A DNA stretch of 64,000 nt from Pristiophorus japonicus (lineage: Eukaryota): the NCBI RefSeq assembly GCF_044704955.1, contig NC_091994.1, positions 92,318,001 to 92,382,000 of the forward strand. The letters run 5' to 3'. Under the pieces are notes generated by a model. That model was not told the DNA's origin, ran no database searches, and saw only the letters and a program-made list of their open reading frames with translations. A program made the position numbers and the translations under genes. Below, piece by piece: positions 15,801-53,692 of the stretch. Every line of letters begins with the position of its first letter. The first letter of the stretch is position 1.

Positions 15801-18800
15801 AACAGTCGCTGAGGTAAACCCCACCCTCGACATGACGCTCTTTGATTGGACTGATTATGAAGATATGAAGCCAGATATGTGGCCTTCAACAAAAAAGAAA
15901 GGTACTGGGTGAGATGGGGTAGGGTGGTGTGGGGGCGAGCCTGTGGGTTTGGGTGAGCGTGCGGTGGGCGCGAGCATGTGAGTGCACGGGGAAGGGATAC
16001 AAGCAAGCGAGTGCATGGGGAGCATAGGGGGAGTGAGCGCGCGGTGGGGTGGGACCATGCTGGGAGAGTGAGCCTGTGGCTAGGGCGCGGGCGCATGGGG
16101 AGCATGGGGGAGTGAGCGAGTGGTGGGGTGGGACCATGCTGGGGGAGTGAGTCTGTGGGTGGGCGAGAACGTGCGTGAAGGAAGCGCAAGTGCCTGGGGA
16201 AATGCAAGCGCACAGGGTAACGAGCACATAGAGGGGCACAAGTTTGTGGGGGGTGGGGGGGGGGGAGGGGGATCGAGGAGTGAGCCTCAGCAGCCTTTTT
16301 GGGGAAAGAGTTTCAGATTTCAACTTTCCTTTGTGTGAAGAAGTGCTTCCTGACTTCATTCCTGAACGGCCTAGCTCTAATCTTATGGTTATTCCCTTTT
16401 GTTCTGAACTATCCACACCAGAGGAAATAGTTTCTCTCTATCTACCCTATCAAATCCTTTAATTATCTTAAACACCTCAATTAGATCACCACTTAATCTT
16501 CTATTTCAGTGTCAGCTATGGCTCAGTGGGTAGCACGCTTGCCTCTGAGTCAGAATGTTGTGGATTCAAGTCCCACTCCAGGGACTTGAGCACCAAAATC
16601 TAGGCTGACACTCCAGTGCAGTGCTGAGGGAGCGCTGCATTGTTGGAGGTGCTGTCTTTCAGATGAGATGTTAAACTGAGGCCCCGTTTTAACATAAGAA
16701 CATAAGAATTAGGAACAGGAGTAGGCCATCTAGTCCCTCGAGCCTGCTCCGCCATTCAACAAGATCATGGCTGATCTGGCCGTGGACTCAGCTCCACTTA
16801 CCCGCCCGCTCCCCATAACCCTTAATTCCCTTATTAGTTAAAAATCTATCTATCTGTGACTTGAATACATTCAATGAGCTAGCCTCAACTGCTTCCTTGG
16901 GCAGAGAATTCCACAGATTCACAACCCTCTGGAAGAAGAAATTCCTTCTCAACTCGGTTTTAAATTGGCTCCCCCGTATTTTGAGGCTGTGCCCCCTAGT
17001 TCAAGTCTTCCCGACCAGTGGAAGCAACCTCTCTGCCTCTATCTTGTCTATCCCTTTCATTATTTTAAATGTTTCTATAAGATCACCCCTCATCCTTCTG
17101 AACTCCAATGAGTAAAGACCCAGTCTACTCAATCTATCATCATAAGGTAACCCCCTCATCTCCAGAATCAGCCTAGTGAATCGTCTCTGTACCCCCTCCA
17201 AAGCCAGTATATCCTTCCTTAAGTAAGGCGACCAAAACTGCACGCAGTACTCCAGGTGCGGCCTCACCAATACCCTATACAGTTGCAGAAGGACCTCCCT
17301 GCTTTTGTACTCCATCCCTCTCGCAATGAAGGCCAACATTCTATTCGCCTTCCTGATTACCTGCTGCACCTGCAAACTAACTTTTTGGGATTCATGCACA
17401 AGGACCCCCAGGTCCCTCTGCACCGCAGCATGTTGTAATTTCTCCCCATTCAAATAGTATTCCCTTTTTTTGTTTTTTTTTCCAAGGTGGATGACCTCAC
17501 ACTTTCCGACATTGTATTCCATTTGCCAAACCTTAGCCCATTCGCTTAACCTATCTAAATCTCTTTGCAGCCTCTCTGTGTCCTCTACACAACCCGCTTT
17601 CCCACTAATCTTTGTGTCATCTGCAAATTTTGTTACACTACACTCTGTCCCCTCTTCCAGGTCATCTATGTATATTGTAAACAGTTGTGGTCCCAGCACC
17701 GATCCCTGTGGCACACCACTAACCACCGATTTCCAACCCGAAAAGGACCCATTTATCCCGACTCTCTGCTTTCTGTTAGCCAGCCAATTCTCTATCCATG
17801 CTAATACATTTCCACTGACCCTGCGTACCTTTATCTTCTGCAGTAACCTTTTGTGTGGCACCTTATCAAATGTCTTTTGAAAATCTAAATACACCACATC
17901 CATCGGTACACCTCTATCCACCATGCTCGTTATATCCTCAAAGAATTCCAGTAAATTAGTTAAACATGATTTCCCTTTCATGAATCCATGCTGCGTCTGC
18001 TTGATTGCACTATTCCTATCTAGATGTCCCGCTATTTCTTCCTTAAGGATAGTTTCAAGCATTTTCCCCACTACAGATGTTAAACTAACCGGCCTATAGT
18101 TACCTGCCTTTTATAGTCTGCCCCCTTTTTTAAACAGAGGCGTTACATTAGCTGCTTTCCAATCCGCTGGTACCTCCCAAGAGTCCAGACAATTTTGGTA
18201 GATTATAACGAATGCATCTGCTATAACATCCGGCATCTCTTTTAATATCCTGGGATGCATTTCATCAGGACCAGGGGACTTGTCTACCTTGAGTCCCATT
18301 AGCCTGTCCAGCACTACCCCCCTAGTAATAGTGATTGTCTCCAGGTCCTCCCTTCCCACATTCCTGTGACCAGCAATTTCTGGCATGGTTTCTGTGTCTT
18401 CCACTGTGAAGACCAAAGCAAAATAATTGTTTAAGGTCTCAGCCATTTCCACATTTCCCATTATTAAATCCCCCTTCTCATCTTCTAAGGGACCAACATT
18501 TACTTTAGTCACTCTTTTGCGTTTTATATTTCTGTAAAAGCTTTTACTATCCGTTTTTATGTTTTGCGCAAGTTTACCTTCGTAATCTATCTTTCCTTTC
18601 TTTATTGCTTTCTTAGTCATTCTTTGCTGTCGTTTAAAATTTTCCCAATCTTCTATTTTCCCACTAACCTTGGCCACCTTATACGCATTCGTTTTTAATT
18701 TGATACTCTCCTTAATTTCCTTGGTTATCCACGGCTGGTTATCCCTTCTTTTACCGCCCTCCTTTTTCATTGGAATATATTTTTGTTGAGCACTATGAAA

Positions 18801-37000: not shown

Positions 37001-40000
37001 GATGTGGAAACAATTTCTGGTCAACAAATACAGATTGATGTAACTCTGAGGATATTAATAAGGATTTAATTGATTTATCCCAGGGACTGGTGGTAATTAA
37101 TCTGTACATGTGTGGTTTGCCTCTATTGTGGGCCAGGTTATGAGAATCAAGTGTGGAGGCAAAAAGGCTTTTTTTTAGCTCATTGAGCAAGGTAGGCACG
37201 ATAGTGAACTGTCGCTAACTTAATCAGCATCATAAAGACAGTACAAGCTGGTTGTGAGGCAAGTGCGTCTTCGAACAGCTGGCTAGGACAAGGTGGTGGG
37301 GGATGTGGAGGGGCCACTGTCTTGGGCACTCCTAACCTTCAGGGAGGTTTTTTTGGGGTTGTGTGAGGGTGGGGGTGGTGCAAGTCAGCTGAGATATCGT
37401 GATATTGCCTCACTGCTACTTAGAGGCCTGTTGCCTGCTTAGGAGGAAACGATTGAGTCATTCTAAGCCAATCTTGCACATCTCTCTCTCCATTTCCATT
37501 ACAAAGCAGCAGTGAGCTAGGTAGGGTTGTGTCTCCAGCACTCAGCCACAGAATGGTGCTGTGTGATTTAGGGGGCGGGGATTGTTGTTTACAGTAGGGT
37601 CGGAACTTCTTGTGGGATTCTGAACACATCCACTGGAACAAGCAGAGCATTAAAATTCCTGGGAACAACATTTTACGCAGAGCTGGAGACCGATGGGGAG
37701 GTGGAGAATCTATTGTGTTGCTTGAGCAAGATCAAGAATCTAAATATAATATTTTAAAAGCTTTCTAATTGTGCCGACACTGGGATTGTTCTACGTGCCT
37801 CAAAGAAGCTGTGACCACGAGAGAGCAGCTGATGATGGTTTTCTGTTTAACAGGGGCTTTATGTTTCCGTGGCTCTCGCAATCCTACATCTGGAATAATT
37901 ACGCTGTTCTGGCCATTGGAGTTTGGGCCATCGCTCAGCGAGACTCTGTTGATGCTCTTGGCATGGTGAGTACCTCCAGCCCAACAATTCTTTCCCAGGT
38001 GTGGATGCATCTTCCAGTTCAATGTGCTTCAGTTACATCCCCCTCCCTCCATCTTTGCTGGAATATAGTTCACAGATGCTAACCACCCCTTGATATCTCA
38101 CCCGAGTGACCATTCTTCACGCGAGTCGAGACAGCAAGTGTTAGCAAACTATTCAGAATAGGGGGAAGCCCACATGATCAGACTTGCACTTCCAGCAGCA
38201 GTCTCCGTATAGTCATCAGGAGTGGGGACGATGACTGATTTTTCCAATTTAACTCCCCCGCCCCCCCCCCCACCCAGCACCGTTGTACCTGCCCAGAAAT
38301 CAGCTACCGGGGACTGGCCGCTCAGTTGCGACAAAGACCGCTCAGCAGTTTTAGGCGGCGGCTGCCCATCAGCATCTTCTCGGGGCAACTAGGAAGGGGC
38401 AATAAATGCTGGTCTTACCAGCGCTGCCCACATCCTGAGCATCAATGAAAAAAGGAACCTGGAATCTTCCCAGTCTGTGGGTCACCTCACACTTGAGCCA
38501 TTGAACCTGTGTGACCTTTCACCCTATCCCATAACCAATTGCCAATTTGCAAGATTCTGGCTGCAGTTCAGTGAATTTGTAAGGATTAAAAAAAGATAAT
38601 TATTTCAGTAAAGCGAGGTGTGTGGGTGTTTTCTTTAGAAAGAGTAAGGGTGAGTCAGAGTATCTTTCTCTTTCTCCCCCGTTGCCCCCCTCCTCTCTCC
38701 CCCGTTGCCCCCCTCCTCTCTCCCCCATTGCCCTCCTCCTCTCTCTCCCCCGTTCTCCCCCCCTCCTCCTCTCTCTCCCCCCCCGTTCCCCCCCTCCTCC
38801 TCCTCTCCCCCCGTTCCCCCCCCTCCTCCTCTCTCTCCCCCCCGTTCCCCTCCCTCCTCCTCTCTTTCCCCCCCTCCTCCTCTCTCTCCTCTCTTTCCCC
38901 CCCCTCCTCCTCTCTCTCCCCCCCGTTCCCCCCCTCCTCTCTCTCCCCCCCGTTCCCCCCCTCCTCTCTCTCCCCCCCCCGTTCCCCCCCCTCCTCTCTC
39001 TCCCCCCGTCCCCCCCCCTCCTCTCTCTCCCCCCCCGTTCCCCCCCTCCTCTCTCTCCCCCCCCGTTCCCCCCCTCCTCTCTCTCCCCCCCATTCCCCCC
39101 TCCTCTCTCTCCCCCCCCCCCCCGTTCCCCCTCCTCCTCTCTCCCCCCTCCCGTTCCCCCACTCTTCTCTCTCCCCCCCGTTCCCCCCCTCCTCTCTCTC
39201 CCCCCCTCCCTCTCTCTCCCCCCCGTTCCCCCCTTCCTCTCTCTCCCCCCCGTTCCCCCCTTCCTCTCTCTCCCCCCCTTTCCCCCCTCCTCTCTCTCCC
39301 CCCCTTTCCCCCCCTCCTCTCTCTCCCCCCCTTTCCCCCCTCCTCTCTCTCCCCCCCGTTCCCCCCCTCCTCTCTCTCCCCCCCCGTTCCCCCCCTCCTC
39401 TCTCTCTCCCCCCGTTCCCCCCCTCCTCTCTCTCCCCCCGTTCCCCCCCTCCTCTCTCTCCCCCCCGTTCCCCCCCTCCTCTCTCTCCCCCCCGTTCCCC
39501 CCCTCCTCTCTCTCCCCCCCGTTCCCCCCCTCCTCTCTCTCCCCCCCGTTCCCCCCTCCTCTCTCTCCCCCCGTTCCCCCCCTCCTCTCTCTTCCCCCCT
39601 CCTCTCTCTCCCCCCGTTCCCCCCCTCCTCTCTCTCCCCCCCGTTCCCCCCCTCCTCTCTCTCTCCCCCCGTTCCCCCCCTCCTCTCTCTCTCCCCCCGT
39701 TCCCCCCTCCTCTCTCTCTCCCCCCGTTCCCCCCTCCTCTCTCTCTCCCCCCCGTTCCCCCCCTCCTCTCTCTCTCCCCCCGTTCCCCCCTCTCTCTCTC
39801 TCCCCCCGTCCCCCCTCCTCCCCCCCTCCTCTCTCTCTCCCCCCCGTTCCCCCCCTCCTCTCTCTCTCCCCCCCGTTCCCCCCCTCCTCTCTCTCTCCCC
39901 CCCGTTCCCCCCCTCCTCTCTCTCTCCCCCCCGTTCCCCCCCTCCTCTCTCTCTCTCCCCCCGTCCCCCTCCTCTCTCTCTCTCCCCCCCGTTCCCCCCC

Positions 40001-42890
40001 TCCTCTCTCTCTCTCCCCCCCGTACCCCCCTCCTCTCTCTCTCTCTCTCCCCCCCGTTCCCCCCTCCCTCTCTCTCTCTCCCCCCCGTTCCCCCCCTCCT
40101 CTCTCTCTCTCCCCCCCGTACCCCCCTCCTCTCTCTCTCTCTCTCCCCCCCGTTCCCCCCCTCCTCTCTCTCTCTCCCCCCCGTTCCCCCCTCCTCTCTC
40201 TCTCCCCCCCGTTCCCCCCTCCTCTCTCTCTCCCCCCCCCCGTTCCCCCCCTCCTCTCTCTCTTCCCCCCCCGTTCCCCCCCTTCTCTCTCTCTTCCCCC
40301 CGTTCCCCCCCCTCCTCTCTCTCTCCCCCCCCGTTCCCCCCTCCTCTCTCTCCCCCCCCCGTTCCCCCCCTCCTTTCTCTCCCCCCCGTTCCCCCCCTCC
40401 TCTCTCTCTCTCCCCCCCCGTTCCCCCCCTCCTCTCTCTCTCTCCCCCCGTTCCCCCCCTCCTCTCTCTCTCTCCCCCCCGTACCCCCCTCCTCTCTCTC
40501 TCTCTCTCCCCCCCCGTTCCCCCCTCCTCTCTCTCTCTCCCCCCCCCGTTCCCCCCTCCTCTCTCTCCCCCCCCCCGTTCCCCCCCTCCTCTCTCTCTCC
40601 CCCCCCCCGTTCCCCCCCTCCTCTCTCTCTTCCCCCCCGTTCCCCCCCTTCTCTCTCTCTTCCCCCCCCGTTCCCCCCCCCTCCTCCTCTCTCTCTCCCC
40701 CCCCGTTCCCCCCCTCCTCTCTCTCCCCCCCCGTTCCCCCCCTCCTTTCTCTCCACCCCCGTTCCCCCCCTCTCTCTCTCCTCCCCCCGTTCCCCCACCT
40801 CCTCACTCTCTCCATCACCCCACATGTGCTTAACCCATTTCCCATTCCTCTGAAAAGAAGTGGGAGAGATAAATTGTGAATTACAATGACTGCAGCTAGG
40901 TGGGAAATAAAGAATTGTAGCAATGGAATGAGCACAAGGCTGTGCTTGCCTCGTACTGTGATTATGTGCGTGTGATGATGCGACTGTTGGGCACGAACAG
41001 TCCAAGCACCAATCGCTAATTGCTTGAGTCCAGTGTTGTGCCTGAGGTTTAAAACACTCTCGTTCATCCTGACAGTTACAGTGAGGTCATTATCAACTGA
41101 CCAGCTCAGCAACAGGACATGTCAAAACATGTTCACATGTACACACAGTAGACATTGTGAGCAATATCCCTGAGGCAGATCTGTCGTGCTGGATTCACAG
41201 AGTTTCTTTCACCTCCTGGAATGGTCTAGCACCTCTGGGCTGTGACCCATTCTTAAACTTGGTGCACCTGGGTCAAGGATTACTGCAGAACCATGGTTGG
41301 TTAGCCTGCGAATGGTGCATCGAGTTACGAGAGTAAACGTGTGTTGGACACAGTGAGGTCTCCCTTTCGCTTTGCTAGTCCCGTGTTTAGTTCACCGTTA
41401 CCTGCTGTCATACTGGCAACCAATGTCCTGTGACTGCCTGCTAGTGATTGGATGTTGAATCTGATGTCTTACTTTTTCTTTCAGTATTTATTTGGCGTGC
41501 TGATAACAATCCTCACAGATATCATCCACATCGCGATTGGCTACAACCGTTTCGCTGCCGTGCAAAGCGACATTGCATTGAGGGACCAGTTCCGCTTCAG
41601 TGTTGGCATGGCAATTTTGAGCCTCCTTCTGAAACCGGTTTCATGTCTCTTTGTGTATCAGATGTACAAGGAACGAGGGGGTGATTGCAACTTAAACATT
41701 GGTAAGAGCCTAGCCCACCTGTACTTGTCACTATAACCCTGGGCAACAGTAGCGGGGCAAGATGATGCACTAAAGGAAACCTTGGAGCTTGATAAATCTG
41801 CACAGCGAGAAGCACCGATTTGGTGTGTTGTCTTTCCCCACCCCAGTGGCACCTGGTAGAGCAAAGGCGTTGTCATTCTGTACAAACCAGGTGACCTCCC
41901 CCTCTCCCCCCCCCCCCCCCCCCCCCCCCCCCCAAGCTCCGGAGTGGGGAGCTTCTGCCACACCCCCGCAACCTCGCTCCCCAGCATGACCTCATCTAGG
42001 AACACATGCTGCACAGCAGATGGGACAGGCTGTATCTTGGCGACAGGCGCAAGTGTAGAATTTGCAACATGCTGGATTTACCTGTGTGCTGCTGTCGTGT
42101 CCGCTGAGCAGGTTGCTCTGAGGCTGCAGCAAGTCACACACACATACACTGGGGCAAACCTCCTGCTCCCAACAGGTTGGCTGTTACAACAGCATGGGGT
42201 GCAGCACTTGGCAATTATAACGTTGTCCAACAGTAATAGCCATTTCTGTTGGGTCTATGCACCAGATTGAATTGAGCGTCAAAGACACAAATCTGATTGG
42301 AGTGAGTGAGCGCGCAGATCAGTCCGATCTGTTGGGTGGGTGGGTGGGAAGCACAGACTCTCATTGGGGTTGGGGGGGGGGGTGGGGGCGGTAGCCACAA
42401 ACACAGACTCTTGGAGACAGAGGGCTGGGGGGCATACACTCGGTGGCGGGGGGAGGAGGGGCATAGACTGAGATTGGAGAGATTCAAATCCCAACTGAGC
42501 CTAATTATGTCCTTGCCTGAGATCCACACTCTTGTTTGAAATAAGGTGAAACAATTTCATTGTGAATTTCAACAGCTATCTCCCTGTTAATAATTACATC
42601 CATGAAAATAATAAAACATTTTCTCAAATTTTGGAGTTTGACAAGTTTGGGCAAACAATGGCTGTGTCCAACGCCCCAAGCCCTCGAGAAGGTCCGTTCC
42701 GTGGGTGCAGTATTCAAGAAGCAGTGAATTCATTGTATTCATCTGGGGGAAGGGGCTATATTTTATATAACTGTGCTTAATATTCCTGTTTTATGTTGTA
42801 CGTGTTCTGTTTTGTTTCTTTAGTTACCTGCTTCTCAACCTTCCGAAGGTGTCATCAAAGCTTATGTTTGTGTTTTTCTTTCTTTCTTTC

Positions 42891-42927
<37 letters not shown>

Positions 42928-45900
42928 TCTCTCTGCTCTCTCCATCTCAGACCTGGACAGTTCCATTGACAGCAGGTTTACGTGCGATAGCGTTGAATCC
43001 ACTGCTCGCTATGGTTGCTCCTACTGAACCACCCGTCCCTGCCTCTCCTGCAGTGCGTGTCCACTCTTCCTCCCTTTGCTGCAACCCGCAGCCCTCCTGC
43101 TTTGATCGGTGATCTTCCAATAATCACATGATCCCTCCTTGGCTGCTGAAATGTTGCTGCCGTTTTTATCCTGTTATTGTTTATTTGTTCTTTGCAAAGA
43201 TCCAGATTATTTCAAGTTTGCATTTTTCATTTTTTGTATAACATTTCTGGATTTAAAAAAAATGTATTTGTTTGTTGTTCATATTCTCTTTGAAATGGAA
43301 TTTTATCAAAGCTGTGGATATTTGAATGAAGGTTTGTGGTTTGGTTGAGTACCCGTTACGAAGCTTTCCTGGAGGCCCAGTGATTGGCTGACCACATGGA
43401 TTAGAAATTCACAGGTTCAATCTTGCTCTGTGCTGAGTTTACTAATCTTAGCTGAAGCACTATAGTTTGTCTCGAGGCTCCTGTGTTGGGGAGGATGAAA
43501 TCAGATGACACTAAAATAGGAGGCATGGTGAATAATTCTGAGGACTAAAGGAAGCTGCAAGGGGATATTGATAAGATGGTGGAATGGGCAAAGAAGTGGC
43601 TGATATAATTCAATGTCAATAAGTGTCGGAGGTACATTTTGGTAAACTAATTATACTTTGAGCAAAGATATTCCCCAGCTTTGGTTCTCCAGTACCAACT
43701 ATCTCCTTAAACCCCTCTCCCCTGCTCCCTCCTCCCTTACTTCCAACAAATGTCATTAAAATTGAGACCATTCATTTAGCCTTTTCTGCTGCATCCACCT
43801 CGATCCCTGAACCCGCGTCTTTCGCTCCTTTTTCCCCTCATGCCCTTTCCGCACTCACCTTGTCCATGAAACCTACTGCTGTTCCCTTAACCCCATTCCC
43901 AGTAAACTGCTGACCACCCAACTTCCCTTCCTGGCTCCTTGCAAGTTGACGTCTAAATGGTTCCCTCCTCGGGTACTGTCTCTTTTTCCCCCCCCCCACC
44001 CCTTTTTCAAAACTGCTGTCATCACCCTCCCCCCCCCCCCCCCCCACCCCCTGAAAAAAATCACCTTTAACCCCTCTCTCTAGAAACCACCACTTTGTCT
44101 GCAACCTCCCTTTCCTCTCCAAAGTTCTTGAATGTGTTGTAGCTCCCAAATCTGTGCCCATCTTCCACGCAACTTCATGTTTGAATCTCTCCAATCCAGG
44201 GTTTCTGCCCCTTCCCCAGCACTGAAACAGCCCAAAGTGGCATGGATTTAGGTTGTGGTACTCTCTCTCTCTCTCCTCATTCTGCTCAATCTCTCTCTGC
44301 AGTCTTTGACACTGTTGACCACACTATTCTCCTCCGCTGTCCAGTTGAGTAGGGCTGCCCTTGCTTGGTTTCACTTTTGCCTCCAATCATAGCCAGAACA
44401 TCTCCAGCAATAGTATCTGTTCCTGTTCTTACACCGTTGCCTCTGGAGGCCCCCCAAGAATCTCCCCTTGACCCTCTCCTCCTCCTCATCTACATACTGT
44501 CATCCAAAGACGTGTGGTTCGCTTCCACGTATGTGTTCTCTGATGGCAGCCGACTCTACACCTCCACCACCTCTCCCGATCACTTCACTGCCTCTCTGTT
44601 GTCAAACTGCTTATCTGACATCCAGTATTGGATGAGCTGCAATTTCCCTCCAGTTAAGCAATGGGAAGACAAAAGCCATTGTCTTTAGCCTCAGCCTCAA
44701 CTTCCATACCTTTGCCACTGTTTCAGGTTGCACCTGACTTTTTAACCTCGGTGTCCTATTTGACTTCAAACTGAACTTCTGAACCCATATCCGCTCCATC
44801 ACATAGGTCGCCAACTTCCACCCTGTAACGTTGTCTGTCTCCACCCCTTCCTCAGCTCACCTGCTGCTGAAACCCTCAATCGTGCCGTTGTAACCTCCAG
44901 ACTCGATTCTTCCAACACTCTACTGGCCAGTCCCCGTGAACTTCAATTCATTCTCAACTCTTCTGCTTATACCCAATCCCACACTAAGTCCCGTTCATCC
45001 ACCATCCCTGTGCTTATTGACCTACTTTGGTTCTCATGCTCATGTTTAAATCCCTTCATGGCCATGCCCTTCACTATCTCTAATGTTCTCCAGCCATTCA
45101 AACCTCCGGGAACTCTGCGTTCCTCTGACTGGCCTATTGTGCATCCCCCTCCCTTTGCCCCATGATTGGGGGCCATGCCTTCAACCGTTTAAGCCCCACA
45201 ATCTGGAATTCTCTCCCTAAACCCCTCTGCCTCTCCACCTCCATCTTATCCTTTAAAACCTCCTTAAAATGCACTTTTTTGACCAAGTTTTTAACTCGCT
45301 CCTCCTGATATCTCCTTTGACGGTGTCAATTATTGTCTGATTACACTTCTGTGAAGTGTCTTGGGACAGTTTGCAAATTGTTGTTGATTTGTTAGAGATG
45401 TTTAAAATTATGAAGGGATGAGACAGAGTAGATAAAAACAGTTTCCAGTGATTGAGGGGCTGTAGGTAAAAGAATAAATGTGACAGAACAGAAGAAATGT
45501 ATTTTAGAGGTGAGAGGCTGTGGAATGTCAGTGAATGAAGCAGAGACAATATCAATATTTAAGGATAGATTAGATAGACAGTTGAAGGCAAAGGGAATAA
45601 AGAGAGATGGGCACAGGGCAAGAACATGGGATGAGGGTTACTACTAACTGTCTAGTTGGATCAAACAGCCTGTTTCCTTGCAGTAATTTCTATATACCTT
45701 TCTGAGACTACAAATGATTTTACTGCCCATTCCTCAGTCTGAGGTTAGACAGCTGAGCAGTTCCAAGCTCTACCAATGTTGCTTTATCAAACTCGTGCTG
45801 TAGAATTCTGGCAGCTCGCTGTGAGCTCGTGGTTGAAACCAGGTCAGTGTAGAGGTTTTCGGGTTGCACACTTTAGTTGTTTTCAGTTATTTCTGCCAAT

Positions 45901-46069
45901 GATCTGTGGGGGGGAGAGAAAATGACTTTTCTTTGAATTGTTCTGTACAGGTTTTCCAGATTTAACTGGTAGTCGCGATCGAACTTCATACCAAACGATC
46001 GATGGGCAGGCACCTGACCACCAGCCCGCTGCTTCTGCGGGGATCAAGACCCCGACCACAGTCTATTAA
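30891..46069 (+). CDS. AGTRAP: Type-1 angiotensin II receptor-associated protein, join(30891..30917,31438..31472,37854..37965,41485..41701,45951..46069), 169 aa
   Basis: MELPAVNLK|MIIFVHWLLTTW|GFMF...LAIGVWAIAQRDSVDALGM|YLFG...RFSVGMAILSLLLKP...MYKERGG|GFPDLTGSRDRTSYQTID...Y*. All junctions are GT-AG and in phase; 510 nt. Confidence 0.95.
31438..31472 (+). CDS. AGTRAP: AGTRAP exon 2 (MIIFVHWLLTTW)
   Basis: cccacag| acceptor, TG|GTGAGT donor; 35 nt. Confidence 0.93.
31540..32290 (-). mobile_element. L2-type LINE 3' portion with an internal ~4x repeat GTAAAAGAGAGGTCTTGCAGGAGAG
   Basis: Minus ORF 31886-32308 contains [23 protein letters not shown] (L2 motif). Confidence 0.8.
33182..33607 (+). 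mobile_element. Deu-domain SINE within older CR1 debris
   Basis: gggttcaagtcccactccaggg B-box region, Deu core and tail ggcgctatataaatccaagtc. Confidence 0.85.
34188..35330 (-). mobile_element. CR1 LINE 3' portion (RT)
   Basis: ORFs 34606-34863 and 34856-35179 ([27 protein letters not shown]); aagaacataag tail. Confidence 0.9.
36269..36790 (-). mobile_element. CR1 LINE 3' end
   Basis: ORF 36512-36751 VQRRFTRMLPGL...RGDLIEVYKI; atagaatcatagaa tail. Confidence 0.85.
37854..37965 (+). CDS. AGTRAP: AGTRAP exon 3
   Basis: tttaacag| acceptor, ATG|GTGAGT donor; 112 nt; LAIGVWAIAQRDSVDA. Confidence 0.95.
38663..40815. repeat. ~2.1-kb pyrimidine-rich minisatellite, ~22-27 bp unit CCCCCGTTCCCCCCCTCCTCTCTCT
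   Basis: Directly visible and almost A-free on the + strand. It produces the 700-800 aa Pro/Ser and Gly/Glu/Arg ORFs. Confidence 0.97.
41485..41701 (+). CDS. AGTRAP: AGTRAP exon 4
   Basis: tttttctttcag| acceptor, G|GTAAGA donor; 217 nt; GMAILSLLLKP...MYKERGG. Confidence 0.96.
42951..43027 (+). CDS. Possible alternative last exon of AGTRAP (DLDSSIDSRFTCDSVESTARYGCSY*)
   Basis: Long (CT)n tract plus cag| acceptor; phase-1 compatible with exon 4; open to TGA. No transcript evidence available. Confidence 0.3.
43680..45375 (+). mobile_element. Degraded L2-type LINE
   Basis: RT remnants (NLPFLSKVLE-like; DLSAVFDTVDH-like at ~44290; CLSDIQYWM) and the tail gtgaagtgtcttgggac. Confidence 0.75.
45951..46069 (+). 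CDS. AGTRAP: AGTRAP last exon (GFPDLTGSRDRTSYQTIDGQAPDHQPAASAGIKTPTTVY*)
   Basis: ttctgtacag| acceptor; DR.SYQTID motif as in the mammalian cytoplasmic tail; TAA at 46067-46069. Confidence 0.92.
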
Positions 46070-46312
46070 TGATCAAGCTGTAAGGTGCCACTGCATGGAA
46101 GCCTGTATAAACGCCTTGTGCCTTAGATTCAGTAACCACCTGCTCGTGTGTGTGTGTGGTGTGTTGGTGAGTGAATGTGTCCGGGTTCTGTGCCAATGTC
46201 CTTTCCTGTTCCAGATGGTGAGGTTGCTATCGTGACTGCCCAGGAGGCACAAAGTTGCCTGGAGTTGGAGGCTGCAGATTGTTGCACTTAAGGAAATTCT
46301 GGCCCTGGTGAA

Positions 46313-46825
46313 TTCAAAGGTCACAGATGTGGCAAACAAGCAAGTCTTTCTACTGCTTCCCAACCAGGATCCAGTTGCACTCGGGCCACTATCTAGGCTT
46401 GCAACACTTGTAAAGTACCTCAGCTTGCAAGAATCATAGCCAATACCAGTCACCTCTGCCTCTTAAGGTACCAGTGGTTATTGGGACATAGCAGTTGAAT
46501 GGCTGTTTATTATTTTCAGGGGATTGCAGTCCTGGCTGAATACAAGACGCAGAGTGAAAGCTGTTGCCAGCTCTCCAGATATATAAAGGCACTGCTCAGC
46601 GCAGTAACAGTGAGCCATAATGACCAAAGGGTTGAAGGTGATTTGCCTCAAACCCTGACTAAAACTACCTCAGGAGGCAGAGGTGACTGGTATTGGCTCT
46701 GATTCTTGCAAGCTGAGATACTTTACAAGTGTTGCAAGCCTAGATAGTGGCCCCTGAGTGCAACTGGATCCTGGTTGGGAAGCAGTAGAAAGACTTGCTT
46801 GTTTGCCACATCTGTGACCTTTGAA
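46313..46825. repeat. Long inverted repeat: arms 46313-46470 and 46666-46825, 195-nt spacer
   Basis: ttcaaaggtcacagatgtggcaaacaagcaag...cacctctgcctc is the reverse complement of gaggcagaggtg...cttgcttgtttgccacatctgtgacctttgaa. By eye there are four substitutions and one 2-nt indel. Confidence 0.95.
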
Positions 46826-47712
46826 AAATGAGATTCAGGATGGGAAGAGTCTGCCTGCTTTATATTGAATTGCAGGTATTACTGGCTGACTGCACTCTAC
46901 AATATAAAAGGGCCACTAGTCACCCACCAACAGGGACCTCCCCACCAGCAGCTCACTGGATTACTGCTATGTTTTAACTCCTGAAACTTGTGGCTGTGTT
47001 AGAATTTACACTAATATCTAACTTCATGCTTCCGCTTTCTTGCTCACAAGCTATTTGAAATTTTGTAGCTCCAGTAATTTTGTCTTCGTGGAAACACCCT
47101 CCGAGATTTGGCAGAGTGGATAAGAGGTTTAATGCTGCTCTGAATTCGACTACTGTCAGAATTCTGTGCTCCCAGACTCCACAGCCAGAGGTGCTCTGTT
47201 GGACCGGTATAAAAGCTGCTCAACTGCTGGTTTTCAGGGGGACACAGAAGAGTGGCACCAAGTGACCAGCCCTGTCCTCCCCTCTCCAGGAAAGTGATTC
47301 AGGAACTTGCTATTTGGGAATTGAAGGCACAAACCTGTGTTGCACACAGTACATTGCATCTCTCTCCATCACCGCCCCCAACCCCCCCACAATGCTCGAT
47401 GAATTGTGTAGCCCATGTGGAATGGTGCAGATTTGATGGGCTGATAGAATGTTACAGCACAGAAACAGTTCAGAGAGTAAACAGCGCTCTAGTTTGCTGT
47501 GGGCCTGGAAACAGTTCAGACTGCAGGAAGGGATCGCTTCTCGTGGTTTCGCTTTCCATTTCCAAAAGCAGACTGGACAAAGATTATATTTGCATTTGTA
47601 AATTCCACATTCCAGAAAAGCATTTCTGTAATGCCAAAGTTGGTGTGTAAATGGGCTCTTAATTTCTATTAACTAGCAAGTAGCTTGATCTTGCAATATA
47701 GCACAATTGCTG

Positions 47713-48087
47713 AATAAAGGAAAGTGACTGAGACCAGTGCAAGCAGTTGTTGGAGAACTGCTGCTGTTGCCTGTGGAAATGGCGGAGGGTTAACAGCTTT
47801 TCCACAAAGATCATTTTTTTCTGTCCCACTCTCGGGCTGGTTGCTTGCCTTAGCATGTGATCCTATCACCATGGAAACAGGAACCAGATATCAATCTTGG
47901 GCTCGCTGTGTGGTTGAACATTTAAATCCTGATATGTTATTCTGCTCAATTTTGTGCCATTTGTTCTGATTTTGGTGCCTCGTTATTGTCAGCATCCTGA
48001 ATGGTATGATTGTGAAATGTATCATTTATTATTGCCAATAAAATCCATTAACATGGACAGACTGCAGTAAGCATATCTCTGAATAAA
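47713..48087 (+). terminator. Candidate AGTRAP polyadenylation signals
   Basis: AATAAA at 47713, 48037 and 48082; the first canonical hexamers I saw after the stop codon. Confidence 0.45.
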
Positions 48088-49473
48088 GGCTACTAAATAC
48101 AGATGCACTGCAACATGGTTTAAACAGAGACAGTTGGCAACATGGAATGAAGGCATTCTGATTCTTTTCCAATGAACAAAAGCAGCTGAATTTTAGGAAA
48201 CCTCAACAATACCAGTGAGAATTTGCTGATCGTGATTTAAAAAAAAAATAAAAGATACATGTAGGCAGTCACCTTGCTACTAGTATCCATGTCTGCACGA
48301 GCCACAATACTGGATACTGTCTCTGCATGTTGGGAACAAGTGCAGCAACGACCTGTCCAACAGATTACTTCAAGTCAAATACTAAACCACAGATTCAAGG
48401 TCATCCAATCACAAGTCTTCAGTTATTTCCCAACAGTAGCTTTGAGGCTGGCTTTTGCAATCATCTTAACCGCATCCTCTTGCAACACACACACACCCAA
48501 CTCCCTGGCACTGAAACATCTCTGCCACCCACACCTTGCTCATCACTCACTGTAACTGCGGGAGATCTAATTTCTCTCATAATTCCTCACTTAACTCATC
48601 CGTAATGAATGATGCAGAAAATGTGACTAAACGTCCCTGCGTGTTATTTCTGGCTCCACTGCTAATTTGGATGTGTATGTTATATATTTATCTGGAATTT
48701 TAAAGCAACAGTAGCAGGAATATAGCAACTTTCCCCCACAGCCACACGCTCAGAACACTTCTGCACGACTCCTCAATCTGTGATTTCCTCTACTGGAGCA
48801 TTGGGTGCAGCTTAATACCAGGGGGCTGTTGACATGTTACACAATCTGATGTGGGGCAGATGTGATTCCCTTAATAGTCATCCTTTCATTAAACCCACTC
48901 CTCTAACCTGGGCTTTGGTCAGCTGGCTGATACTGAGTACAAGGCAGTTGCCCCTCAATATAGTTTCTCTTTGTAAGTTTCTAAAATCCCCAGGGAAACT
49001 CGAGAGAGTCAATGAACACTCACGGAGCCGATCATCAAAGCTGCTGTTCCTAGGGAGAGATTTGAGTTCGCTAGGGATTTTTTAGTTTATTTGAGAATTC
49101 CTTGCAGCAGCTGGTAACAGTTACATGATTCCTTGCACATAGTTCTGACCCTTGATTTTATTGACCTGCCACATGTGCTAAGTTCCCCAGTACTCTTTCC
49201 AATGACCCTGTGTGTGAGAACGATGCTCTCTTTTCAAGTAATGTTCTCTCCCAGTGGATTTCCTTGTGCCATATCCCATCTTCTATGTCGTGGCAAAGTT
49301 AAAGGCAGAAGGTATTCAGAAACAGTTTGGGCCAGGATGTGGGAAATTAGTCGGACTTCCCGTTTCTAATTTGCTTATTTTCTCTGTTCTTTTATTGATC
49401 AATTTTTGTGTTCCACACAGTGAGGGTTGTTTAGTTTGGAGAATGGAAGGCTGTATAACTCCAGTTCCAGTTT

Positions 49474-52400
49474 TGAGTGATCATCGCATATTTGAATTTC
49501 AAATTCATTTGGAGGATGAGAAAGTTGGATCTCAAATCAGCGTCCTAAGCTTAAATAAAGGAGACTACAAAGGTATGAGGGCAGAGTTGGCTAAAGTGGA
49601 CTGGGAAAATAGATTAAAGTGTAGGATGGTTGATGAACAGTGGCGTACATTGAAGGAGATAGTTCACAACTCTCAAGAAAAATATATTCTAGTGAGGAGG
49701 AAAGGTGTAAAAGAAAAGACAGTCATCCGTGGCGAACTAAAGAAATAAAGGATGGTATCCAATTTAAAAACAAGGGCATGTAAAGTGGCTAAAACCAGTG
49801 GGAGGTCAGAAGATTGGGAAGCTTTTAAAAAAACTCAGCAAAGAATGACTAAAAAAATTATTAAGAAAGGGAAGATAGATTATGAAAGTAAACTAGTATG
49901 AAATATAAAAACAGATAGCAAGAGTTTCTATATAAAAAGGAAAAGAGTGGCTAAAGTAAATGTTGGTCCCTTGGAGGACGAAACCAGGGAATTAATAATG
50001 GGAAACATGGAGATGGCAGAAACTCTAAACAAATATTTTGTATCAGTCTTTAGGGTAGAGGGCACTAACAATATCCCAACAGTGGATAGTCAAGGAGCTA
50101 TGGGGGGGGGGGGGGGGGGAAACTTAACACAATCACAATCACTAAGGAGGTGGTACTCAGTAAGATAATGGGACTAAAGGTGGATAAATCCCCTGGACCT
50201 GATGGCTTGCATCCTAGGGTCTTAAGAGAAGTAGCGGCAGGGATAATGGATGCATTGGTTGTAATTTACCAACATTCGCTGGATTCTGGGGAGGTCCCAG
50301 CAGATTGGAAAACCACAAATGTAACGCCCCTATTTAAAAAAGGAGGCAGACAAAAAGCAAGAAACTATAGATTAGTTAGCCTAACATCTGTGGTTGGGAA
50401 AATGTTGGGAGTCCATTATTAAAGAAGCACTAGCAGGACAGTTGGAAAAACATAATTCAGTCAGGCATGGTCAGCATAGATTTATGAAAGGGAAATGTTT
50501 GTCAAATTTGCTGGAATTCTTTGAGGATGTAATGAACAGGGTGGATAAAGGGGAACCAGTGAATGTGGTGTATTTGGACTTCCAGAAGGCATTTGACAAG
50601 GTGCCACATAAAAGATTACTGCACAAAATAAAAGTTCACGGGGTTGGGGGTAGTAAGAAAGCAATAAAGAAAGGAAAGATAGATTACGAAGGTAAACTTG
50701 CGCAACATATAAAAACGGATAGTAAAAGCTTTTACAGATATATAAAACGGAAAAGAGTGACTAAAGTAAATGTTGGTCCCTTAGAAGATGAGAAGGGGGA
50801 TTTAATAATGGGAAATGTGGAAATGGCTGAGACCTTAAACAATTATTTTGCTTCGGTCTTCACAGTGGAAGACACAGAAACTATGCCAGAAATTGCTGGT
50901 CACGGGAATGTGGGAAGGGAGGACCTGGAGACAATCACTATCACTAGGTGGGTAGTGCTGGATAGGCTAATGGGACACAAAGTAGACAAGTCCCCTGGTC
51001 CTGATGAAGTGCATCCCAGGGTATTAAAAGAGATGGCGGAAGTTATAGCAGATGCATTCGTTATAATCTACCAAAATTCTCTGGACTCTGGGGAGGTACC
51101 ATCGGATTGGAAAGCAGCTAATGTAATGCCTCTGTTTGAAAAAGGGGGCAGACAAAAGGCAGGTAACTATAGGCCGGTTAGTTTAACATCTGTAGTGGGG
51201 AAAATGCTTGAAACTATCATTAAGGAAGAAATAGCGGGACATCTAGATAGGAATAGTGCAATCAAGCAGACACAGCATGGATTCATGAAGGGGAAATCAT
51301 GTTTAATTTACTGGAATTCTTTGAGGATATAAAGAGCATGGTGGATAGAGGTGTACCGATGGATGTAGTGTATTTAGATTTTCAAAAGGCATTCGATAAG
51401 GTGCCACACAAAAGGTTACTGAAGAAGATAAAGGTATGTGGGGTCAGTGGAAATGTATTAGCATGGATAGAGAATTGGCTGGCTAACAGAAAGCAGAGAG
51501 TCGGGATAAATGGGTCCTTTTCGGGTTGGAAATCGGTGGTTAGTGGTGTGCCACAGGAATCGGTGCTGGGACCACAACTGTTTACAATATACATAGATGG
51601 CCTGGAAGAGGGGACAGAGTGTAGTGTAACAAAATTTGCAGATGACACAAAGATTAGTGGGAAAGCGGGTTGTGTAGAGGACACAGAGAGGCTGCAAAGA
51701 GATTTAGATAGGTTAAGCGAATGGGCTAAGGTTTGGCAGATGGAATACAATGCCGGAAAGTGTCAGGTCATCCACCTTGGGGGGGGGGGGGGAAACAAAA
51801 AGAGGGAATACAATTTGAATGGGGAGAAATTACAACATGCTGCGGTGCAGAGGGACCTGGGGGTCCTTGTGCATGAATCCCAAAAAGTTAGTTTGCAGGT
51901 GCAGCAGGTAATCAGGAAGGTGAATGGAATGTTGGCCTTCATTGCGAGAGGGATGGAGTACAAAAGCAGGGAGGTCCTTCTGCAACTGTATAGGGTATTG
52001 GTGAGGCCGCACCTGGAGTACTGCGTGCAGTTTTGGTCGCTTTACTTAAGGAAGGATATACTGGCTTTGGAGGGGGTACAGAGACAATTCACTAGGCTGA
52101 TTCCGGAGATGAGGGGGTTACCTTATGATGATAGATTGAGTAGACTGGGTCTTTACTCGTCGGAGTTCAGAAGGATAAGGGGTGATCTTATAGAAACATT
52201 TAAAATAATGAAAGGGATAGACAAGATAGAGGCAGAGAGGTTGTTTCCACTGGTCGGGGAGACTAGAACTAGGGGGCACAGCCTCAAAATACGGGGGAGC
52301 CAATTTAAAACTGAGTTGAGAAGGAATTTCTTCTTCCAGAGGGTTGTGAATCTGTGGAATTCTCTGCCCAAGGAAGCAGCTGAGGCTAGCTCATTGAATG

Positions 52401-53692
52401 TATTCAAGTCACAGATAGATAGATTTTTGACCAATAAGGGAATTAAGGGTTATGGGGAGCGGGCGGGTAAGTGGAGCTGAGTCCACGGCCAGATCAGCCA
52501 TGATCTTGTTGAATGGCGGAGCAGGCTCAAGGGGCTAGATGGCCTACTCCTGTTCCTAATTCTTATGTTCTTAATATCTTATGTATATTAGCATGAATAG
52601 AGGATTGGCTAACTAACAGAAAACAGAGAGTCGGGATAAATGGTTCATTCTCTGGTTGGCAACCAGTAACTAGTGGGGTGCCGCAGGGATCAGTACTGGG
52701 ACCCCAACTATGTACAATCTATATTAATGACTTGGAAGAAGGGACCGAATGAAATGTAGTCAAGTTTGCTGACGATACAAAGATGGGAGGAAAAGCAATG
52801 TGTGAGGAGGACACACAAAATCTGCAAAAGGACATAGACAGGCTAAGTGAGTGGGTAAAATTTGGCAGATGGAGTATAATGTTGGAAAGTGTGAGGTCAT
52901 GCATTTTGGCAGAAAAAAAATCAAAGAGCAAGTTATTTAAATGGAGAAAAATTGCCAAGTGCTGCAGTACAGCAGGACCTGCAGGTACTTGTGTGTGAAA
53001 CATAAAAGGTTAGTATGCAGGTACAGCAAGTGATCAGGAAGGCCAATGGAATCCTGGCCTTTATTGCAAAGGGGATGGAGTATAAAAGCAAGGAAGTCTT
53101 AGTACAGTTATACAAGGTATTGGTGAGACCACACTTCGAATACTGCATGCAGTTTTGGTTTCCATCTTTAAGAAACGATATACTTGCTTTGGACGCAGTT
53201 CGGAGAAGGTTCACTAGGTTGATTCCGGAGTTGAGGGGGTTGACTTATGAGGAAAGCTTGAGTAGGTTGGGCCTCTACTCATTGGAATTCAGAAGAATGA
53301 GAGGTCTTCTTATCGAAACGAATAAGATTATGAGGGGGCTTGACAAGGTGGATGCAGAGAGGATGTTTCCACTGATAGGGGAGACGATAACTAGGAGGCA
53401 TAATCTTAGAATAAGGGGCTGCGCATTAAAACTGAGATGAGGAGGAATTTCTTTCAGAGGGTTGTAAATCTGTGGAATTCGCTGCCTCAGACTACTGTGG
53501 AAGCTGGGACATTGAATGGATTTAAGACAGAAATAAACAGTTTCTTAACTGATAAGGGAATAAGGGGTTATGGAGAACGGGCAGGGAAGTGGACCTGAGT
53601 CCATGATCGGATCAACCATAATTGTATTAAATGGTGGAGCAGGCTCGAGGGGAAGTATGGCTTACTCCTGCTCCTATTTCTTATGTTCTTAT
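49474..53692 (+). mobile_element. CR1 LINE (host copy) interrupted by a second CR1 at ~50654-52582
   Basis: ORF2 pieces SDHRIFEFQI, KSPGPDGLHP, YLDFQKAFDKVPH; resumes after the insert with gtatattagc...; 3' tail ttcttatgttctta at ~53680. Confidence 0.92.
50654..52582 (+). mobile_element. Young CR1 nested inside CR1; same subfamily as 16690-19590
   Basis: Protein nearly identical to the minus-strand copy at 16.7-18.6 kb ([29 protein letters not shown]); has its own 3' tail at ~52560. Confidence 0.92.

What the first reader, a model, noticed from the sequence alone, without database searches (positions are those of the whole stretch)
46313..46825. ~160-bp near-perfect hairpin of apparently unique sequence in the AGTRAP 3' UTR
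Seen: arms 46313-46470 and 46666-46825 are reverse complements with four substitutions and one 2-nt indel, separated by 195 nt. They start 244 nt after the stop codon and lie before the first AATAAA (47713). The arms do not resemble any repeat family seen in this window, and I see no clear TSD. Established: long 3' UTR duplexes are substrates for ADAR editing, Staufen, Dicer (hairpin endo-siRNAs) and dsRNA sensors. Inference: either a functional dsRNA element, a recent fold-back duplication or an unrecognised MITE. This is the best candidate for something undescribed in the window.
Basis: partly seen in the sequence, partly recalled or inferred. Interest (0 to 1): 0.7.

Follow-up and report, generated by a model that had tools for sequence, protein, structure and literature searches.

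The report
Hyper-edited hairpin in shark AGTRAP mRNA
The mRNA tail of a shark's AGTRAP gene carries a one-off mirror-image repeat predicted to fold into a 158-base-pair double helix, and RNA data show dense A-to-G changes confined to its two arms, likely ADAR editing of a tolerated by-product of an old DNA copying slip rather than a new kind of element.

Summary
In detail: arms 46313-46470 and 46666-46825 pair at 154 of 158 positions, with a 195-nt spacer. DNA contigs support all four junctions. The arm and spacer match only this locus in the 5.9-Gb genome, and no repeat family, TIR family or credible TSD was found. The gene is shark AGTRAP.

Three spliced public runs, all from one study, cover both arms and continue to the second AATAAA (48037). 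They show A>G at 20 of 83 arm adenosines, against 0 of 423 in the rest of the UTR and none in DNA. G is depleted 5' of the changed sites, as expected for ADAR.

This is an expressed, non-repetitive, near-perfect 3' UTR duplex, likely hyper-edited by ADAR. It likely arose by a local inverted duplication. The class is known and rare (PMC7006430, PMC11838218); I found no report for this gene. Function, conservation and small RNAs are untested. The scan noted a related 3' fold-back hairpin in another genome (e1-9064968). New member of a known kind; interest 0.36.

The parts
37855..37966 (+). AGTRAP coding exon (approximate ends)
   Evidence: PF06396 hit; 100% identical to P0001 residues 22-58
41485..41701 (+). 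AGTRAP penultimate coding exon
   Evidence: PF06396 hit; 72 of 72 residues identical to a shark AGTRAP record; AG/GT ends; spliced to 45951 in runs X5-X7
45951..46069 (+). coding part of the last exon, stop TAA at 46067-46069
   Evidence: splice joint 41700->45950, GT..AG, in X5-X7 and absent from DNA run X1
46070..48053 (+). 3' UTR of about 2.0 kb; the 3' end is approximate
   Evidence: covered by contigs of X5-X7 up to 48038-48053
46313..46470 (+). left arm; 13 listed A>G sites (46388-46433) plus 8 more read from loose ends (46334-46352); short palindromes centred on both of its junctions
46471..46665 (+). 195-nt spacer, single locus, 0 of 57 A changed
46666..46825 (+). right arm; 7 listed A>G sites (46710, 46711, 46718, 46720, 46725, 46727, 46781)
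47713..47718 (+). first AATAAA; RNA contigs continue past it
48037..48042 (+). second AATAAA, likely the main poly(A) signal
   Evidence: RNA contigs of X5-X7 end at 48044, 48038 and 48053 while DNA goes on; one study only

Best explanation
A single-locus 158-bp inverted repeat lies in the expressed 3' UTR of shark AGTRAP and is predicted to fold into a near-perfect duplex; RNA contigs show dense A-to-G changes confined to its arms, likely ADAR hyper-editing of a hairpin that likely arose by a local inverted duplication and is likely tolerated rather than selected.
(2) Shown: spliced runs cover both arms and the spacer. (3) Shown: A>G clusters on the mRNA strand in both arms and nowhere else in the UTR. 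(4) Inferred, about 0.95: these are inosines made by an ADAR on the intramolecular stem. (5) Inferred, about 0.8: one arm was copied from the other by template switching or a templated repair insertion. The junction palindromes weakly point to the left arm as the inserted copy. (6) Inferred, about 0.7: editing breaks the 70-bp perfect run into runs of at most 25 bp, which would blunt MDA5/PKR-type sensing and let the hairpin persist without a function of its own.
For: Geometry and energy. Single locus: 2 hits for the arm (the arms themselves) and 1 for the spacer. No repeat family: best nhmmer E 1.5 in 1 Mb, against 93 and 74 hits at E<0.01 for two positive controls; 0 hits at E<1e-3 from 234 repeat-tile profiles over 45901-48300, against 40 in the adjacent intron. 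Expression: GT..AG joint in X5-X7, absent in DNA run X1. Editing: 20 A>G sites, seen in X5 (20 of 20), X6 (17) and X7 (19); none in DNA run X3 at the 19 of 20 sites it covers, and none in X1 at the 8 sites listed there. Changed: 20 of 83 arm A against 0 of 423 other UTR A (Fisher p 2e-17, sites not independent). Loose ends are hyper-edited, with 4 of 4 to 7 of 8 A read as G (table 7, compared by eye). 5' G context: 1 of 17 changed against 27 of 66 with loose-end sites (p 0.008), or 19 of 66 with table sites only (p 0.059), matching the upstream-G depletion in PMC5625713. A_deamin matches lie on six contigs and RIG-I_C matches at three loci. Watson-Crick pairs would fall from 154 to 128 of 158 and the longest run from 70 to 25 bp if all sites were edited in one molecule.
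Against: Runs X5-X7 are not on record as RNA; this is inferred from splicing. They come from one study and have no matched DNA, so any single site could be a SNP; 46391, 46412 and 46413 read G in all laid depth of all three runs. Only contigs were available: no editing level, no strand, and no record spans exon plus both arms. A46718>G coincides with an arm difference and could be a misplaced left-arm contig. In the identical outer 70 bp, assigning a change to an arm assumes sense-strand A>G. Modelling I as G changes the MFE little (-356.5 to -352.1), so destabilisation rests on the established weakness of I-U pairs. Near-perfect duplexes are strongly depleted from mRNAs (PMC7006430), so persistence for possibly 1e7 generations or more is not obviously neutral. 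No orthologous UTR was obtained, so the origin and the lack of function are untested.
Confidence: 0.68

Rival explanations
1. Selected cis-regulatory duplex: the stem, whatever its origin, is kept because ADAR or Staufen binding or inosine content tunes AGTRAP mRNA stability, export or translation.
For: It sits in the mature 3' UTR and is densely edited in 3 of 3 runs. It persists although near-perfect mRNA duplexes are rare: 246 in 724,071 genes of 49 organisms (PMC7006430). It may be old. Mammalian Atrap is controlled through its 3' UTR by miR-125 (PMC10755798, passages). The outer 70 bp hold no difference.
Against: Three of the four substitutions and the indel break pairing, and none is compensatory. 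The clean outer 70 bp is borderline (about 0.05 by my estimate for 5 random changes). No run from another organism was listed, which says nothing either way. No Rfam match.
Confidence: 0.17
2. Orphan or very low-copy MITE or fold-back transposon: the arms are 160-bp TIRs of an element whose family is lost or too diverged to find. It would still be edited.
For: TIR-spacer-TIR layout of 513 nt; palindromic repeat-like elements occur in this genome; palindromic Harbinger MITEs are major ADAR targets in frog (PMC5625713).
Against: No second copy of arm or spacer in the genome. The terminal 22-mer with up to 2 mismatches has 2 other sites, neither of which extends into an element. No family hit in 1 Mb. 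No TSD beyond AA. TIRs only 2.5% apart would normally leave recognisable siblings.
Confidence: 0.1
3. Hairpin endo-siRNA precursor: Dicer cuts the stem into 21-22-nt RNAs that act on AGTRAP itself or in trans.
For: 70 bp of perfect duplex is a feasible Dicer substrate (established knowledge).
Against: No other locus matches the arm, so there is no trans target with long complementarity. RNA contigs cover both sides of the hairpin at similar depth (weak). Heavy editing generally antagonises Dicer (recalled). No small-RNA data were examined.
Confidence: 0.04
4. Assembly artefact (false fold-back).
For: The DNA runs X1 and X3 are of sample S1, which may be the source of the assembly.
Against: DNA contigs cover all four junctions without differences. 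In the second study, X5 contig 46446-46709 bridges left arm, spacer and right arm. The arms differ at 5 places. Arm-restricted A>G in both arms needs a real duplex.
Confidence: 0.01

Closest known systems
Edited non-repetitive intramolecular dsRNAs / editing-enriched regions (human dsRNAscan set, PMC11838218; passages read)
   Same: Unique-sequence arms, editing on both arms; length near the median of 144 bp for the 4,597 edited non-repetitive human dsRNAs.
   Different: Much tighter: 97.5% Watson-Crick and 70 contiguous bp, against medians of 87.5% paired and 30 bp; spacer 195 nt against 509. It lies in a mature 3' UTR of a shark.
Almost perfect inverted duplicated sequences in mRNA (Barak et al. 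2020, PMC7006430; parts 1-2 of 5 read)
   Same: Over 40 bp and over 96% identity (96.25%), in mRNA and heavily edited; the paper counts only 246 such in 49 organisms.
   Different: Shorter than the >300-bp class that the paper treats as the prime MDA5 risk; not repeat-derived.
Inverted Alu and B1/B2 pairs in mammalian 3' UTRs edited by ADAR1 (PMC13508285; passages read)
   Same: Intramolecular 3' UTR duplex with clustered A-to-I editing; works alike.
   Different: The arms are not SINEs and are nearly identical; single locus.
Palindromic Harbinger MITE of Xenopus and hyper-editing in elephant shark (Porath et al. 2017, PMC5625713; passages read)
   Same: Self-contained hairpin of about 200-500 nt that is hyper-edited; hyper-editing is already shown in a cartilaginous fish (200,171 sites, 81% in repeats).
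   Different: No repeat family, no TSD.
Template-switch-created hairpins (PMC8794818; passages read)
   Same: A reverse-complement copy of nearby sequence creates a perfect stem in one step, and later switches can keep it paired.
   Different: The events counted there are short rRNA stems; a 158-nt copy is longer, and no ancestral state was available to test the four switch points.

Membership tests
ADAR-edited non-repetitive 3' UTR dsRNA (EER) | long intramolecular duplex predicted in the transcript | tested here: met
ADAR-edited non-repetitive 3' UTR dsRNA (EER) | both arms within the expressed 3' UTR | tested here: met
   spliced runs cover 45951-48040 including both arms; no single record spans all of it
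ADAR-edited non-repetitive 3' UTR dsRNA (EER) | clustered A>G (at least 3 per 50 nt) on both arms, absent from DNA | tested here: met
   13 sites in 46 nt on the left and 6 in 18 nt on the right; none in DNA runs X1 and X3, which are not matched to the RNA donors
ADAR-edited non-repetitive 3' UTR dsRNA (EER) | ADAR neighbour preference (5' G depleted) | tested here: met
   1 of 17 against 27 of 66, p 0.008; p 0.059 with table sites only
ADAR-edited non-repetitive 3' UTR dsRNA (EER) | arms not derived from a repeat | tested here: met
   limited by seed-based genome search and a 1-Mb sample
ADAR-edited non-repetitive 3' UTR dsRNA (EER) | changes depend on ADAR or are inosine | not testable with these tools
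   needs inosine chemistry or ADAR loss
MITE / fold-back DNA transposon | terminal inverted repeats around a short non-coding core | tested here: met
MITE / fold-back DNA transposon | dispersed copies sharing the termini | tested here: not met
MITE / fold-back DNA transposon | target-site duplication of a superfamily type | tested here: not met
   only AA at the exact ends
MITE / fold-back DNA transposon | empty site in a relative or another allele | not testable with these tools
   no relatives held; no shark orthologue
Hairpin endo-siRNA locus | phased 21-22-nt small RNAs from the stem | not testable with these tools
   no small-RNA run listed
Hairpin endo-siRNA locus | complementary target gene elsewhere | tested here: not met
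   the arm has no other genomic match
Known structured RNA family (Rfam) | match at gathering score | tested here: not met
   0 matches in the 64-kb window

The most novel reading that the evidence does not exclude
The hairpin is an old, selected, repeat-independent regulatory duplex shared across sharks. Nearly every AGTRAP mRNA is hyper-edited in it, making it a single-copy, uniquely mappable 'critical' ADAR substrate that ties the editing state to AGTRAP output or to innate dsRNA sensing in cartilaginous fish.
Probability: 0.15. Interest if true: 0.62.

Novelty: new member of a known kind. Interest (0 to 1): 0.36.

Why it matters
Near-perfect duplexes are largely purged from mature mRNAs, most strongly when they are not made of repeats (PMC7006430). 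This is a clear exception: unique sequence, expressed and densely edited. Because it maps to one locus, it is a handy natural reporter of ADAR activity in sharks, where I found no single 3' UTR substrate described. It also gives a case for asking whether editing lets such a duplex escape purifying selection. If the stem proved conserved with compensatory changes, it would be a new regulatory element in a renin-angiotensin gene. As it stands it adds a member to a known class.

Tried and rejected
- No RNA holder is listed as RNA on record; runs X5-X7 were judged RNA from the splice joint alone.
- The spacer gave weak nhmmer hits (E 0.1-0.55) at the same query range in four places. All four belong to one abundant family, and a 63-sequence profile of that family found nothing in 45901-48300 at E<10. 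Rejected as chance.
- Two 2-mismatch matches to the arm terminus do not extend.
- No TSD beyond AA. No Rfam family. Only short stop-to-stop frames in the UTR, none pursued. The bacterial promoter/terminator scan is irrelevant to a vertebrate.
- No joint that skips or inverts the hairpin was listed in X5-X7 or X3.
- Orthologous UTRs: the genome search holds no relatives; the metagenome scan gave one distant homologue, 30% identical (L114); our findings gave 0 look-alikes. Conservation is untested.
- Idea that the 2-nt indel removed a miR-125 seed match from the left arm: the seed is recalled, and the RF00052 search found nothing and rang in no control genome. Left as an untested curiosity.
- An antisense transcript as the pairing partner is rejected: changes stop at the arm limits (0 of 57 spacer A) and, in contigs placeable by arm differences, are all A>G on the + strand.
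- Literature: 'AGTRAP' with 'A-to-I editing' gave 1 unrelated paper; searches listed nothing on this hairpin. I read no supplements; the elephant shark site lists of PMC5625713 could hold the orthologous region.

Full report
Observation. The inverted repeat is at the stated coordinates: 154 of 158 positions pair, with four substitutions, one 2-nt indel and a 195-nt spacer. The substitutions give two A-C mismatches, one U-C mismatch and one G-U pair; perfect runs are 70, 35, 18 and 25 bp. The region folds at -369.8 kcal/mol, z -29 against 100 shuffles. In 100 sampled 10-kb stretches there were 37 inverted repeats of at least 40 bp and 80% identity within 2 kb. Six of the 37 had arms with no other match in the sample, and only one of the 37 reached 100 bp at 95%, a pair of high-copy repeats. 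The feature is far beyond chance and unusual for this genome.

Host gene. PF06396 (AGTRAP) matches two exons in the window and nowhere else in the genome. The exon at 41485-41701 is identical over 72 of 72 residues to an AGTRAP record annotated from the sawshark Pristiophorus japonicus, and the next named hits are other cartilaginous fishes at 74-85%. The last exon starts at 45951 and stops at 46069.

Is it real DNA? Short-read contigs of run X1 cover 45397-46342, 46388-46748 and 46796-47090 with no differences; X3 gives the same pieces, with one SNP. These breaks are what a k-mer assembly of an inverted repeat gives, and the pieces span all four junctions. X1 and X3 are of sample S1, which may be the source of the assembly, but a contig of X5, from a second study, also bridges left arm, spacer and right arm (46446-46709).

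Is it in the mRNA? Runs X5, X6 and X7 (samples S2-S4, one study) are not on record as RNA. Each has a contig joining 41700 to 45950 across a GT..AG intron, absent from the DNA run, so I treat them as RNA. Their contigs cover the last exon, both arms, the spacer and the UTR to 48044, 48038 and 48053, past the first AATAAA (47713) and at the second (48037). No single record spans exon and both arms.

Editing. At a 1% threshold, one search lists 20 A>G places in these runs, 13 in the left arm and 7 in the right; X5 shows 20 of 20, X6 17 and X7 19. DNA run X3 shows none at the 19 sites it covers. The only other substitutions listed in the three runs are T>C at 46962 (also in DNA) and C>T at 47102, both outside the hairpin. 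That is 20 of 83 arm adenosines against 0 of 423 in the rest of the UTR, including 0 of 57 in the spacer. Loose contig ends, compared by eye, differ from the genome only by A>G, at 4 of 4 to 7 of 8 adenosines, and add 8 sites at 46334-46352. One loose end placed on the right arm shows the mirror T>C changes, as expected in the identical outer 70 bp. The long contigs also break next to adenosines (46316, 46445, 46672, 46710, 46791), which hints at more sites. Adenosines with a 5' G are spared: 1 of 17 against 27 of 66 (p 0.008), or 19 of 66 with table sites only (p 0.059). This fits the upstream-G depletion reported across metazoans (PMC5625713, passages). The one exception, A46718, faces a C and is also where a misplaced left-arm contig would read G. 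The genome holds A_deamin matches on six contigs and RIG-I_C matches at three loci; I did not assign them to genes.

Limits of the editing evidence. There is no matched DNA for S2-S4, so single sites that read G in all laid depth (46391, 46412, 46413) could be SNPs. The pattern as a whole cannot be: one change type, one strand, only in paired bases, in many combinations. Contigs give no editing level, strand or tissue.

Origin. The arm finds only the two arms and the spacer only itself in 5.9 Gb; this search is seed-based and skips very common words. The terminal 22-mer with up to two mismatches finds two other sites, which do not extend. In a 1-Mb sample the arm's best nhmmer E-value is 1.5, while two control repeats give 93 and 74 hits. 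Profiles of 234 repeat tiles give 0 hits at E<1e-3 in 45901-48300 and 40 in the adjacent intron. One Mb samples a family of about 6,000 copies once on average, so a small, old family could be missed. There is no TSD beyond AA. A local inverted duplication is therefore the best origin; template switching is known to create perfect stems in one step (PMC8794818, passages). Both junctions of the left arm, and neither of the right, are centred on short palindromes (half-lengths 4 and 3; background 0.25% and 1.4% of UTR positions). This was noticed after the fact. It weakly suggests that the left arm is a templated insertion at a break with fold-back ends. Four substitutions equal 1.3% per arm, or 1.8e7 generations (0.5-4.6e7 from counting error alone) at the epaulette shark rate of 7e-10 (PMC10587355, passages; that rate has a tenfold interval). 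The duplication need not be recent.

How it likely works. The UTR folds into a 158-bp stem (predicted). An ADAR deaminates many adenosines in both arms (inferred from the A>G pattern). If all 28 sites were edited in one molecule, Watson-Crick pairs would drop from 154 to 128 and the longest run from 70 to 25 bp; co-occurrence at that scale is not shown. A G-for-I folding proxy barely changes the energy, so the destabilising effect rests on established knowledge of I-U pairs. Editing would reduce sensing by MDA5 or PKR and so let the hairpin persist (inferred). Nothing here shows an effect on AGTRAP output. None of the arm differences is compensatory, and no orthologous UTR could be obtained.

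Comparison with what is known. It works like an inverted-SINE pair in a mammalian 3' UTR (PMC13508285, passages) but is not one. It meets the tested features of edited non-repetitive intramolecular dsRNAs, of which 4,597 are predicted in human, with medians of 144 bp, 87.5% paired and 30 contiguous bp (PMC11838218, passages); this one is at the tight extreme. Barak et al. count 246 almost perfect inverted duplications in the mRNAs of 724,071 genes from 49 organisms and find depletion stronger for non-repeat ones (PMC7006430, parts 1-2 of 5); this hairpin is in that class but below their 300-bp risk length. Hyper-editing is already known in elephant shark (PMC5625713). It fails the MITE tests for family and TSD. 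Searches listed no report of this hairpin or of AGTRAP 3' UTR editing; I read no supplements. Earlier scan notes describe a 3' fold-back hairpin in another genome and a small inverted copy in a ferritin UTR of this genome; I did not check them.

Verdict. Real, expressed, single-locus and very likely ADAR-hyper-edited; a rare but known kind of RNA structure with no demonstrated function. New member of a known kind, interest 0.36. The reading that it is a conserved regulatory ADAR substrate has probability about 0.15 and would deserve about 0.62.

Noticed in passing
window 46930-47091; L007:1501-1662 (G000:C6:46499232-46499393): A 162-nt piece of the AGTRAP 3' UTR just downstream of the hairpin has one 91%-identical copy on another chromosome, in DNA with no repeat hits around it. 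Possibly an old templated insertion; it does not include the arms.
   Followed up: partly
window 46309-46316 and 46467-46472: Short palindromes are centred on both junctions of the left arm and on neither junction of the right arm; they resemble fold-back or P-nucleotide ends. Post hoc.
   Followed up: partly
window 51456-52573 and 52586-53691; also 16695-18615 and 50654-52573: Two opposite-facing copies of a long repeat, 76% identical and 12 nt apart, lie about 3.4 kb beyond the poly(A) site; a 1.9-kb 96%-identical inverted pair lies 32 kb apart. Read-through RNA could form more dsRNA.
   Followed up: no
L103:5310-5513 (G000:C18, near 70.005 Mb): Another inverted repeat with no other match in the sample: 50 bp, 98% identical, 104-nt spacer. 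Unique fold-backs recur in this genome.
   Followed up: partly
window 46382-46383 and 46752-46753: The 2-nt indel removes from the left arm what would be a miR-125 seed match (seed recalled); miR-125 represses mammalian Atrap through its 3' UTR (PMC10755798). Could be chance; not confirmed.
   Followed up: partly
window 9457-11032 and 38667-40813: Two long imperfect tandem arrays of 1.6 and 2.1 kb, the second inside an AGTRAP intron.
   Followed up: no
window 46962 and 47102: Likely SNPs in the 3' UTR: T>C in X7 and DNA run X3, and C>T in X5 and X6.
   Followed up: no
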